Part shown: positions 12,001-15,000 of the stretch, piece after piece
How the letters are laid out: each line of letters starts with the position of its first letter
How positions within the stretch are numbered: position 1 is the first letter of the stretch
Assembly (NCBI RefSeq): GCF_988243305.1
Contig: NZ_OZ547136.1
Direction: 5' to 3' (one strand)
DNA: 64,000 nt
Made by a program: the position numbers

Positions 12001-15000
12001 TCAGCAAACCAAGCTTTGATAGCGTCAGAGAAGGCGATCTTCAACTCGGTTGCAACGTTGACTTTGCAGACGCCTGGCCCAATGGTGCGACGAACATACT
12101 CATCCGGCACATCGCTCGCCCCATGCAGCACAAAGCGGGCAAAACAAACGGCATAAATTCCATTTGTTTTGCCCGCTTTGTGCTGCCTCACCATTTCTGT
12201 CAGATGTTTCACTTTCCTCTCCAGTTCAGATTGCTGCGATATTAATCTTTCGTTTTGTTTCAGTTGATACTGCGTCATGGTGAGATAAAAATAAAACGAA
12301 AGATAATAGTTTTCTGATCTGATTCACAAAAGAAACATAATGAAAGTCAGTGAAACGAGAGTAGCTTGCGCCAATGGGCAAGGTGGGCTTGCATTTGCTT
12401 AATAGAAAGGCGTTAATAGGCAAAACGAAATGAAACGAAAGTTTTACGAAAGGACTTACTATGAGTAATACCGACGCTTCAGGTGAGAAGCGAGTGACAG
12501 GCACCAGCGAGCGACGAGAACAGATCATTCAGCGTCTGCGACAGCAAGGGAGTGTGCAGGTTAACGATCTGTCGGCATTGTATGGCGTATCTACTGTGAC
12601 GATCCGCAACGATCTGGCGTTTCTGGAAAAGCAGGGAATCGCTGTGCGTGCCTATGGTGGCGCGTTGATCTGCGATAGCACGACGCCGTCAGTCGAGCCA
12701 TCAGTGGAAGACAAAAGCGCACTGAACACCGCGATGAAACGCAGCGTTGCGAAAGCTGCCGTTGAGTTGATTCAGCCAGGTCATCGGGTGCTCCTCGATT
12801 CCGGGACCACCACTTTTGAGATTGCTCGTCTGATGCGCAAGCACACTGACGTAATTGCGATGACCAACGGTATGAACGTGGCTAATGCGTTGCTGGAAGC
12901 GGAAGGCGTTGAGCTGCTGATGACCGGCGGGCATTTGCGCCGTCAGTCGCAATCTTTTTACGGCGATCAGGCTGAGCAATCGCTGCAAAATTACCACTTC
13001 GATATGCTGTTTCTTGGTGTAGATGCGATCGATCTGGAGCGCGGCGTCAGCACGCATAATGAAGATGAAGCCCGTTTAAACCGCCGGATGTGCGAAGTTG
13101 CGGAACGGATCATCGTGGTCACCGATTCCAGTAAGTTCAATCGTTCCAGTTTACATAAGATCATTGATACTCAACGTATCGACATGATCATTGTTGATGA
13201 AGGCATTCCTGCGGATAGTCTGGAAGGCTTGCGAAAGGCTGGGGTTGAAGTGATTCTGGTCGGGGAGCTCGCGTCTTCGCTGTGATTCACTATGCCCGAT
13301 AAACAAGCGTTATCGGGCATAATACAACTTAATGTATGAAGAGAATATCAGGCCACCGGTGCCGGGTTAAACACTGCCAGTTGGTTATGCAATCCCCATT
13401 GATCCGAGAGGGTTTTCTTCTTCCCGCTGGCGACGTCGAGAATAAAGTGGAACAACTTCCAGCCCACCTCTTCAATGGTTTCTTCGCCGGTAGCGATAGT
13501 GCCTGCGTTAATATCCATTAAATCAAACCAGTGGTTCGCCAGCCCGGTGCGGGTCGCCATTTTAATGACGGGTACCTCCATCAGGCCGTACGGCGTACCA
13601 CGGCCGGTCGTAAACACTTGCACGGTGATACCCGAAGCCACCTGTTGCGTGCCACAGACAAAATCTCTGGCTGGCGTCGCGGCGTAAATTAATTCGCGTT
13701 TAGTCGGGTGTTGACCGGGCGACAGCACTTCAACAATTGCGGTTTTACCCGATTTAGCAATGGAGCCGAGTGCTTTCTTTACCACGTTGGCGAGGCCGCC
13801 CTTTTAGTTGCCCGGCGAAGGGTTGGCGCTGCGGTCGGTTTTGCCCATATCGGGATAGTTATCGTATCAGGCCATCTCTTCGAGCAGACGCCTGCCCACT
13901 TCTTCATTGATGGCGCGTGGCGTTAACAGATGAATGGCGTCGCGTACTTCAGTGACTTCGGAGAACATCACCGTTGCGCCGCAGCGCACCAGCAGGTCAG
14001 AGTCGTAGCCGACAGCGGGGTTAGTGGTAACGCCGGAGAACGCGTCGCTGCCACCGCACTGCATGCCCACCACCATCACTTCGCCACCGAAGTTTGGGTT
14101 CAGCGCAATATTATGGATGGTGCGAATTGGCACCACGGCGGCCGGTACATTAATCGCTACGCCACAGCCGTAGAGGTGGTTCAAGTCGACCACGCCGTCG
14201 ATGCTCAGGTATTTCGGCAGCAGGTCGCGTTCGATAATTTTAACCACGTAGTCCTCAACGTCTGCCATGCAGTGCACGCTGGTGGTAATACCCAACAGGT
14301 TTTTGGTGCCCACGCTGCCGTCGGCGTTGCGGTAACCTTCAAAGGTGTAATCTTCCTGCGGCTGCTGCGGCTCCGGCACTTTGGTCGCCCGAGGCAGGGT
14401 GTTAAGCGGCGGCGCTTTCGGTAGCGTGACCGTGGATTCGTCGATCCAGCTGCCTTTGGCGACATCGCGTACCGTGTAACCGATAGCGAATGATTTCACC
14501 ATTATGAGGAAGGTTGTTATCCCTTTTCTGGCGTATTCGTCATTCCATTCGTATCCCCGGTACCGGATGTTTATATCGTACAGTGCCGGTGCTGGCATGC
14601 TTTCCTGCAGGTCTGCACCGGTTTAACAAACAAAACTTAACAGAGTCTGAAGGAGTAGTATTCCGTGCAAATAACCGAAGCGTTACTTTCAGAGCCGAGA
14701 GATATCTGGCGTTTTGTTCAGCAGGCGGTGGACCACTGGCCGCGTCTGCTGGCAGTCCACTTCACGCGTCATTCGACCAGAGTAAATATTGATGATTACT
14801 AGATTCGTGTATTTTATCAGGCATTTTACTTGCGAATAAATCCCCTTGCTATCCAGCGAAACCACACAGGTAGCTATTACCATATGTGGTAATACACTAG
14901 TTACAGGAAAAATATGCAAGTTCCGCAATACGTTGTTTGTTGCTCCTTAGCCAGGATCTTTTCTTCCATGCGAGATATGACAACAATTTTGAGGAAGGAT

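What the first reader, a model, noticed from the sequence alone, without database searches (positions are those of the whole stretch)
14598..14802. Duplicated island 5' module: the start region of the gene at 34670 recurs as a truncated remnant about 210 bp upstream of IS2
Seen in sequence: about 180 bp around 14598-14770 (…GTCTGCACCGG…GTGCAAATAACCGAAGC…TTTGTTCAGCAGGCGGTGGACCACTGGCC…) is roughly 80% identical to 34590-34780. The second copy heads an intact three-gene island segment. The first copy runs into a stop after 45 codons, and IS2 (CTGGT duplication) lies further downstream. This suggests two related islands, one of which has been largely deleted.
Basis: seen in the sequence. Interest (0 to 1): 0.4.

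Follow-up and report, generated by a model that had tools for sequence, protein, structure and literature searches.

The report
Decayed island gene copy split by IS2
The repeat is real, but it is an old, full-length dead copy of a small island gene (UCP030791 family) with IS2 inserted inside it, shared by over a thousand E. coli genomes, so it is an ordinary relic at a seam in a mosaic pathogenicity island.

Summary
Observation confirmed. Window 14568-14775 matches 34578-34780 at 78% over 210 columns (E 1e-41). The 45-codon ORF, IS2 and its CTGGT duplication are as described.

The interpretation needs correcting:
- **Full length, not a stub.** With IS2 (15014-16344) removed, copy 1 aligns to intact family proteins from codon 1 to the family's stop codon (TAA 16517-16519). 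It has at least 3 in-frame stops and 3 frameshifts.
- **IS2 is inside it.** IS2 interrupts the pseudogene rather than lying 210 bp downstream.
- **Old and widespread.** The pseudogene without IS2 occurs in 1072 of 5426 complete E. coli genomes, always just upstream of a deoK-like sugar operon. IS2 occupies this site in 129 genomes. Strain 361 has the same locus with the site empty.
- **Chimeric 5' end.** The leader and codons 1-26 (to 14741) are of the type found in IHE3034, where the same garD' junction heads an intact gene. From 14742 on it is the old pseudogene lineage.
- **Only gene 1 is duplicated.**

The family is Pfam PF27752 (UCP030791). It has a Rep-like fold and a remote link to YagK/YfjJ, but lacks the HUH histidines. 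This is an ordinary relic of low interest.

The parts
13348..14515 (-). garD (UxaA-family) pseudogene lacking its 5' end. It is the left neighbour of copy 1, and the same junction occurs in IHE3034.
   Evidence: PGAP annotation of identical DNA in strains 190693 and 361. 93.6-97% identical to IHE3034 through 14775.
14516..14664 (+). Leader upstream of the UCP030791 gene, of the IHE3034 type. Similarity to the copy-2 leader starts at about 14537.
   Evidence: 89-94% identical to IHE3034, at most 68% to the other leaders. Alignments.
14665..15013 (+). 5' part of the UCP030791 pseudogene (codon equivalents 1 to about 118). It includes the 45-codon ORF 14665-14802, stops at 14800, 14898 and 15006, and a frameshift near 14875.
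   Evidence: tblastn with three intact family proteins, E 3e-25 to 6e-31. Frame map.
14741..14742 (.). Recombination junction inside the pseudogene: IHE3034 (intact) type to the left, old pseudogene lineage to the right.
   Evidence: Informative sites are 30 vs 5 up to 14744 and 1 vs 59 beyond it (Fisher p 2e-18, breakpoint chosen after inspection). Alignment.
15009..15013 (.). Left copy of the 5-bp target duplication CTGGT.
   Evidence: A single CTGGT is present at the empty site in strain 361 (gap-free 99.7% alignment).
15014..16344 (+). IS2 (1331 bp) inserted inside the pseudogene.
   Evidence: NF006918 IS2 TnpB, 705.9 bits against a cut-off of 597. Ends read. This exact junction is present in 129 of 5426 genomes.
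16345..16349 (.). Right copy of the target duplication CTGGT.
16350..16519 (+). 3' part of the UCP030791 pseudogene, ending at the family's stop position (TAA 16517-16519). Two further frameshifts lie near 16385 and 16435.
   Evidence: tblastn across the IS2 site gives ...EEGCS*LV|ELLQQAWEALT... and GDHEPFTALKATLQSFTFPMVAGIFH* against GSSGQYVALKTAVQSFMSQVIATIIR*.
16520..17044 (+). Spacer plus ilvN-like (ACT domain) pseudogene, always linked to the pseudogene.
   Evidence: 90-97% identical in strain 9 and GPEC172, with no alignment to loci carrying the intact gene. Annotations.
17046..21423 (.). deoK-like sugar module headed by the pseudogene: DeoR-type regulator (-), ribokinase-family kinase, FucP-like permease, aldose 1-epimerase.
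   Evidence: The operon is described on pheV islands in PMC7545054 and PMC6455142.
34537..34669 (+). Leader of copy 2.
   Evidence: Alignments.
34670..35179 (+). Copy 2: intact UCP030791-family gene (169 aa).
   Evidence: All 120 listed homologues carry a precomputed PF27752 hit, the closest 95% identical. AF2 model pLDDT 88.6.
35232..35891 (+). Gene 2 of the intact segment: ECs1377-family protein. PGAP starts it at about 35268.
   Evidence: NF052300, 324.8 bits against a cut-off of 190. Not duplicated in the window.
35912..36220 (+). Gene 3 of the intact segment: hypothetical protein. PGAP bp of it.
   Evidence: Not duplicated in the window.

Best explanation
Copy 1 is a non-functional, full-length pseudogene of the UCP030791 family (Pfam PF27752), a small gene of E. 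coli integrative-island backbones. It is not a 45-codon stub.

**Shown**
- Its body (14742-15013 plus 16350-16519) belongs to an old dead lineage that travels with the deoK-like sugar module and carries shared stops and frameshifts.
- IS2 later inserted inside it in a minority lineage, duplicating CTGGT.
- The leader and first 26 codons (14516-14741) are of a different type, the one that follows the same garD' junction in IHE3034 and heads an intact gene there.

**Inferred**
- The garD' side and the deoK side of this island were joined by homologous recombination, or gene conversion, within the most conserved tract of the gene. That tract encodes ...RFVQQAVDHWP....
- This explains why the 5' 180 bp still looks about 80% like copy 2 while the rest is only about 50-65% identical.
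- The 45-codon ORF is a by-product of that patch.

Copy 2 is the intact paralogue inside an SpLE1/OI-43,48-type backbone segment. Its protein has a Rep-like (HUH-endonuclease/palm) fold remotely related to YagK/YfjJ. It lacks the HUH histidines and the catalytic tyrosine, so it is probably a DNA-binding or regulatory derivative rather than a nickase (inferred).
For: - **Full length.** tblastn of three intact proteins against the IS2-excised sequence covers residues 1-127 and 144-168, E 3e-25 to 6e-31, reading across the IS2 site. The multiple alignment reaches the shared stop position. The frame map shows 3 stops and 3 shifts.
- **Old and shared.** The identical TAG at codon 46 occurs in strains 9, GPEC172, 361 and ST131. 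The IS2-free body occurs in 1072 of 5426 genomes and some part of it in 1597.
- **IS2 is derived.** Strain 361 is 99.7% identical over 14000-17500, without gaps and without IS2. The occupied junction occurs in 129 genomes.
- **Chimera.** Segment identities are. Informative sites switch at 14741/14742, with Fisher p 2e-18, 5e-16 and 9e-11 against three pseudogene alleles. Strains 9 and ST131 keep a more diverged 5' end with an extra TGA at codon 25, which the window lacks.
- **Only gene 1 is duplicated**.
Against: - The direction of the exchange is inferred from five alleles, not from a phylogeny of all carriers.
- The breakpoint for the Fisher tests was chosen after looking at the alignment, so the p-values are nominal.
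- The body is only 37-41% identical in protein to every intact member. Part of its divergence may predate inactivation, if it comes from a deep subfamily, rather than being decay.
- No intact close relative of the body was found, and none was searched for in the large protein database.
- The Rep-like assignment rests on a common ferredoxin-like fold and on sub-threshold sequence scores.
- No expression data were available.
Confidence: 0.85

Rival explanations
1. One reading: a sister island once stood here, a deletion in this genome removed everything beyond the first 45 codons of its first gene, and IS2 lies in unrelated DNA downstream.
For: - The ORF does stop after 45 codons.
- g2 and g3 are absent after copy 1.
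- Without tools, the similarity to copy 2 drops sharply after about 14780.
Against: - Homology continues to the family's stop codon, across IS2.
- The same pseudogene and downstream module occur in at least 1072 genomes and several contexts, so no local deletion is needed.
- IS2 interrupts the pseudogene.
Confidence: 0.07
2. The conserved leader plus first 45 codons is kept because it still functions, as a micro-protein or as a regulatory DNA or RNA element for the neighbouring operon.
For: - The 5' part is far better conserved against intact genes (80-91%) than the body (47-66%).
- PGAP annotates the 45-residue product.
- There is a hairpin plus T-run in codons 10-16 of copy 2.
Against: - The ORF is not conserved in the pseudogene lineage. 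Strains 9 and ST131 have TGA at codon 25, and ST131 also has an indel.
- Pseudogene alleles differ more from each other in the 5' part (86-92%) than in the body (92-99%), which points to different histories rather than constraint.
- There is no Rfam match and no promoter-like site.
- Terminator-like hits are not above the shuffles.
- The conserved tract encodes the family's most conserved protein motif.
Confidence: 0.04
3. Same chimera, opposite polarity. The garD' leader was originally joined to the pseudogene, as in the window, and IHE3034 later acquired an intact gene body plus the sfa operon by a crossover at the same tract.
For: - The garD' junction and leader are shared by the two arrangements.
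- The data show a crossover but not its direction.
Against: - Pseudogene alleles in strains 9 and ST131 have their own diverged codons 1-26 with a stop. The lineage therefore had a 5' end of its own, which the window has lost.
- Codons 1-26 of the window match intact genes such as copy 2 and the APEC gene.
Confidence: 0.12

Closest known systems
UCP030791 family (Pfam PF27752; PGAP name 'UCP030791 family putative phage-derived protein')
   Same: - Copy 2 is a typical 169-residue member, with homologues 74-95% identical that all carry the precomputed PF27752 hit.
- Copy 1 aligns to members over the full length.
- PGAP gives this name to the 45-residue stub.
   Different: Copy 1 is not an intact member. 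It has at least 3 stops, at least 3 frameshifts and an IS2 insertion, and its body is only 37-41% identical to any intact member.
YagK/YfjJ proteins (Pfam PF11726 YagK_YfjJ_C; inovirus Gp2 / HUH Rep-like) of CP4-6- and CP4-57-type islands
   Same: - Same island neighbourhoods: YagK/YfjJ, AlpA, zinc-ribbon genes, then UCP030791.
- Similar size.
- hhalign gives 71.6% probability over 104 columns.
- Rep-like fold matches.
   Different: - No Pfam hit for copy 2, and distant relatives score only below threshold.
- The HUH histidines and the Y-L-A-K tyrosine, invariant in three YagK/YfjJ proteins, are absent. I-R-C / C-R-M stands in place of H-x-H, and there is no conserved Tyr.
deoK-operon islands at pheV (PAI II AL862, LAC PAI)
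   Same: - The pseudogene sits directly upstream of a module made of a DeoR-type regulator, a ribokinase-family kinase, a FucP-like permease and an aldose epimerase.
- In strain 9 that module lies next to an ascorbate-type PTS gene (the vpe operon, by my reading), as described for those islands (PMC6455142, PMC7545054).
   Different: - Those papers do not mention the pseudogene.
- Identity of this module with deoQKPX is inferred from gene families and gene order, not tested.
SpLE1 / OI-43,48 backbone of E. coli O157:H7 (ECs1377 region)
   Same: - Copy 2 and its neighbours (33600-36600) are 99.8% identical to O157:H7 genomes.
- Gene 2 is an ECs1377_fam equivalog.
- HecB-like and PerC genes follow, as in SpLE1 (PMC1890555).
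   Different: Here the segment lies inside a different composite island, flanked by IS1 and IS600, and not in an O157 genome.
IS2 insertion with 5-bp target duplication
   Same: 1331 bp, an IS2 TnpB equivalog, and CTGGT on both sides.
   Different: Nothing unusual. It hit a gene that was already dead.

Membership tests
UCP030791 (PF27752) | Sequence match to the family over the whole domain | tested here: met
   - Copy 2: all 120 listed homologues carry PF27752, the best 95% identical at E 5.5e-101. The family name is given.
- Copy 1: tblastn E 3e-25 to 6e-31 over residues 1-127 and 144-168.
- The local Pfam copy lacks this model, so it was not scanned directly.
UCP030791 (PF27752) | Intact reading frame (a functional member) | tested here: not met
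   For copy 1: stops at 14800, 14898 and 15006, frameshifts near 14875, 16385 and 16435, and IS2 at 15014-16344. Copy 2 is intact.
YagK/YfjJ (PF11726) | Pfam score above the gathering threshold (25.8 bits) | tested here: not met
   There is no hit for copy 2, the IHE3034 gene or the APEC gene. Distant family members score 18.4-20 bits.
YagK/YfjJ (PF11726) | HUH motif (His-hydrophobic-His) on the central strand | tested here: not met
   H86 and H88 are invariant in three YagK/YfjJ proteins. hhalign puts I-R-C (copy 2) and C-R-M (family consensus) at that position.
YagK/YfjJ (PF11726) | Conserved catalytic tyrosine (Y-L-A-K) | tested here: not met
   Y156 and K159 are invariant in YagK/YfjJ. No invariant or nearly invariant Tyr exists in the 16-sequence UCP030791 alignment.
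YagK/YfjJ (PF11726) | Rep-like (HUH endonuclease) fold | tested here: inconclusive
   - AF2 model pLDDT 88.6.
- Foldseek viral hits are mostly Rep initiators at E 4e-4 to 1e-2.
- The ferredoxin-like core is common to all of these.
IS2 | IS2 transposase, about 1.33 kb element, 5-bp target duplication | tested here: met
   NF006918 scores 705.9 bits against a cut-off of 597. The element is 1331 bp with CTGGT on both sides. The empty site has a single CTGGT.
deoK (deoQKPX) operon | Gene order: regulator, kinase, permease, epimerase-like gene | tested here: met
   DeoR-like (230 bits), ribokinase TIGR02152 (369 bits), fucP TIGR00885 (324 bits), and aldose 1-epimerase by PGAP.
deoK (deoQKPX) operon | Deoxyribose kinase activity or growth on deoxyribose | not testable with these tools
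   Needs an experiment.
SpLE1/OI-43,48 backbone segment | Near-identity to the O157:H7 ECs1377 region | tested here: met
   99.8% identity over 3001 bp in several O157:H7 genomes. ECs1377_fam scores 324.8 bits.

The most novel reading that the evidence does not exclude
The leader plus first ~26 codons of UCP030791-family genes may be a recurrent crossover point at which cargo modules are exchanged between E. coli islands. Candidate modules are the deoK operon, the sfa fimbrial operon and the SpLE1-type backbone. The same dead gene body and deoK module are found behind at least three different leader types, with different switch points within about 150 bp. A smaller second point: UCP030791 may be an HUH-Rep domain that lost its catalytic residues and was retained as an island DNA-binding factor.
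Probability: 0.4. Interest if true: 0.3.

Novelty: already known. Interest (0 to 1): 0.15.

Why it matters
- **Annotation.** RefSeq lists a 45-residue 'hypothetical' or 'UCP030791 family' protein here. It is really the first piece of a full-length pseudogene, and the IS2 insertion has no gene-level consequence.
- **Island history.** The locus marks the seam where the garD' side and the deoK side of this composite pathogenicity island were joined. It gives a marker (IS2 present or absent, leader type) for tracing lineages that carry the deoK module.
- **Limits.** It reveals no new mechanism or system.

Tried and rejected
- **Pfam and NCBIfam scans** of copy 2, the 45-residue stub and two intact homologues found nothing. 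The family model PF27752 is absent from the local libraries.
- **hhalign** of the family alignment against a single YagK sequence gave nothing. It gave a moderate signal only against a 3-sequence alignment.
- **A PDB sequence search** with the family profile gave only chance-level hits, E at least 0.44.
- **Regulatory element idea.** An Rfam scan of 14300-17100 found no match. The promoter scan found none near copy 1, and terminator-like hits near copy 2 were not above the shuffles. Rejected.
- **Micro-protein idea** rejected, because other pseudogene alleles have an earlier stop.
- **Remnants of g2, g3, the 156-residue gene or the CPBP gene** near copy 1: none found.
- **Literature searches** for YagK/YfjJ, UCP030791 and ECs1377 found no functional study.
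- **Intact relative of the pseudogene body.** I ran no further search on this. The answer would not change the verdict.

Full report
**1. The observation**

The two stretches are truly similar. blastn of window 14300-15100 against the whole window finds 14568-14775 vs 34578-34780 with 164/210 identities (78%), E 1e-41. A second, colinear match joins 14886-14954 to 34889-34957 (76%) (alignment). The ORF 14665-14802 has 45 codons and ends in TAG. IS2 occupies 15014-16344 (1331 bp) with CTGGT on both sides, and its transposase is an IS2 TnpB equivalog (705.9 bits). Its coordinates understate the extent of the similarity.

**2. Copy 1 is a whole gene, dead, with IS2 inside it**

I removed IS2 and one copy of the duplication, then ran tblastn with three intact relatives against the joined sequence:
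- the copy-2 product (169 aa);
- the IHE3034 gene (170 aa);
- an APEC gene (182 aa).

They align to residues 1-70, 70-127 and 144-168, with E 3e-25 to 6e-31. The alignment reads straight across the insertion site...EEGCS*LV|ELLQQAWEALT, against ...EECAQLVDLLQQTWSVIS in copy 2. The end, GDHEPFTALKATLQSFTFPMVAGIFH*, aligns with GSSGQYVALKTAVQSFMSQVIATIIR*, stop on stop (TAA 16517-16519).

The reading path needs three frame changes, near 14875, 16385 and 16435. It passes three stops, at 14800, 14898 and 15006. Over the whole gene, copy 1 is 67% identical to copy 2 in DNA. Its body is 37-41% identical in protein to every intact member. Only this gene is duplicated: gene 2 (ECs1377 family), gene 3, the upstream 156-residue gene and DUF4222 have no second copy in the window.

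**3. The pseudogene is old and widespread, and IS2 is a late addition**

The window is E. coli island DNA, 100% identical to many complete genomes such as strain 190693.
- The IS2-free pseudogene body (485-nt probe spanning the insertion site) is present at 80% coverage or more in 1072 of 5426 complete genomes, including ST131. Some part of it is present in 1597.
- The exact pseudogene-IS2 junction is present in 129 genomes.
- Strain 361 has the same agaR - garD' - pseudogene - ilvN' - DeoR - kinase arrangement without IS2. It is 99.7% identical over 14000-17500 without a gap, so it is the empty site with a single CTGGT.
- The TAG at codon 46 is identical in strains 9, GPEC172, 361 and ST131.

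In all of these, the pseudogene is followed by the same spacer, an ilvN-like pseudogene and a four-gene module. The module has a DeoR-type regulator, a ribokinase-family kinase, a FucP-like permease and an aldose 1-epimerase. By gene order and context this looks like the deoK (deoxyribose) operon described on pheV islands (PMC7545054, PMC6455142). That identification is an inference.

**4.

Identity of the window to other alleles, by segment:

| Segment | IHE3034 | Other leaders / pseudogene alleles |
|---|---|---|
| 14513-14664 (leader) | 89-94% | at most 68% (other leaders) |
| 14780 onward | 47-65% | 92-99% (pseudogene alleles of strains 9 and GPEC172) |

Informative sites switch between 14741 and 14742. 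Against the ST131 allele there are 30 IHE3034-like and 5 pseudogene-like sites up to 14744. Beyond it there are 1 and 59 (Fisher p 2e-18; similar against two other alleles). The breakpoint was chosen after inspection, so the p-values are nominal.

In IHE3034 the same garD' junction and leader head an intact 170-residue gene. That gene is followed by an ECs1377-family pseudogene and the sfa operon.

The pseudogene alleles of strains 9 and ST131 keep a more diverged version of codons 1-26, with an extra TGA at codon 25. Strain 9 has the copy-2-type leader, behind the CPBP and 156-residue genes. GPEC172 and ST131 have a third leader type.

So the same dead body and sugar module sit behind at least three leader types, with different switch points. 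The simplest reading is repeated homologous exchange within the best-conserved tract of the gene. That tract encodes RFVQQAVDHWP, the motif holding the family's invariant D23 and P26 and nearly invariant H24. In the window, this exchange joined the garD' side of the island to the deoK side.

The exchange also explains two things:
- The first 180 bp still look about 80% like copy 2 while the rest does not.
- The window's 45-codon ORF is open, yet it is not conserved among pseudogene alleles.

**5. What the intact gene is**

Copy 2 belongs to Pfam PF27752, 'UCP030791', a name PGAP also gives to the 45-residue stub. The family is narrow: 45 clusters at 50% identity among 1.84 billion representatives.

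Its usual neighbours are YagK/YfjJ genes, an AlpA-like regulator and zinc-ribbon genes.

Evidence for a remote link to YagK/YfjJ and HUH Rep proteins:
- Three distant members hit PF11726 (YagK_YfjJ_C) just below threshold.
- A profile-profile comparison with three YagK/YfjJ proteins gives 71.6% probability (E 3.6e-5) over 104 columns.
- A confident AlphaFold model (pLDDT 88.6) has a ferredoxin/palm-like fold.
- Foldseek against viral models returns mostly rolling-circle initiators, including parvovirus NS1, microvirus Rep, phage G4 A* and inovirus Gp2.

However, the HUH histidines and the Y-L-A-K tyrosine, invariant in YagK/YfjJ, are replaced. I therefore do not file it as a YagK/YfjJ member. 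I infer a Rep-derived protein that binds DNA but no longer nicks it. This is untested.

Copy 2 and its neighbours are 99.8% identical to the ECs1377 region of O157:H7 SpLE1/OI-43,48 (PMC1890555).

**6. Rivals**

Contradicted by the full-length alignment and by the wide distribution of the same pseudogene.
- **A functional micro-protein or regulatory element.** Unlikely: other alleles have an earlier stop, there is no Rfam or promoter signal, and the 5' part varies more among pseudogene alleles than the body does.
- **Opposite polarity of the exchange.** Not excluded, but less likely given the pseudogene lineage's own diverged 5' end.

**7. Verdict**

The relic is complete, ancient, chimeric and interrupted by IS2. 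It is an ordinary product of mosaic island evolution and belongs to a catalogued family. Its value lies in correcting the annotation and marking a module seam. Interest is low.

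Noticed in passing
window 17046-21423: A DeoR-type regulator (-), ribokinase-family kinase, FucP-like permease and aldose 1-epimerase. This looks like the deoQKPX deoxyribose operon known from pheV pathogenicity islands. The pseudogene plus an ilvN-like pseudogene always precede it.
   Followed up: partly
window 11874-14515: A piece of the chromosomal aga/gar region is carried inside the island: aldolase/kbaZ remnants, intact agaR at 12461-13285, and a garD pseudogene with frameshifts and a 208-bp deletion relative to IHE3034. The same junction to the UCP030791 leader occurs in IHE3034.
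   Followed up: partly
window 6163-7474, 26131-27442, 52633-53942 (-), 45129-46171 (-), 57365-57623 (-): Three identical copies of a 1310-1312 bp IS3-family element, plus a 95% relative and a fragment. The copy at 6163-7474 abuts the 'enterotoxin' ORF (7435-9012), which is 525 codons here against 629 in strain 190693, so the element probably truncates it. The copy at 26131-27442 probably accounts for the 1314 extra bases relative to strain 190693.
   Followed up: partly
window 38426-41107 and 142-5306: Large SF1-helicase-like proteins with sub-threshold matches to anti-phage ProA, Hhe and PLuB models. In strain 190693 the first pair lies next to a 'TOTE conflict system' pseudogene. These are possible defence genes on the island.
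   Followed up: no
window 33600-44500: The copy-2 segment matches the SpLE1/OI-43,48 backbone of O157:H7: the UCP030791 gene, the ECs1377 family gene, DUF4222, a HecB-like POTRA protein, a helicase, IbrA/IbrB-like genes and PerC. It is bounded on the left by IS1 and a truncated IS600.
   Followed up: partly
window 34699-34715 (and 14696-14712): A GC-rich hairpin followed by GTTTTGTT lies inside codons 10-16 of the UCP030791 gene. It is weaker in copy 1. The scan found 2 terminator-like sites against 0.9 expected, which is not significant.
   Followed up: no
L006 (GPEC172) 2837-5651; L004 (APEC E123) 4118-6623; L010 4007-6597: UCP030791 genes sit at the end of a conserved run: a YagK/YfjJ gene, an AlpA-like regulator, then (in two of the three loci) two zinc-ribbon genes. 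In GPEC172 the YagK/YfjJ genes themselves occur as several fragments.
   Followed up: no
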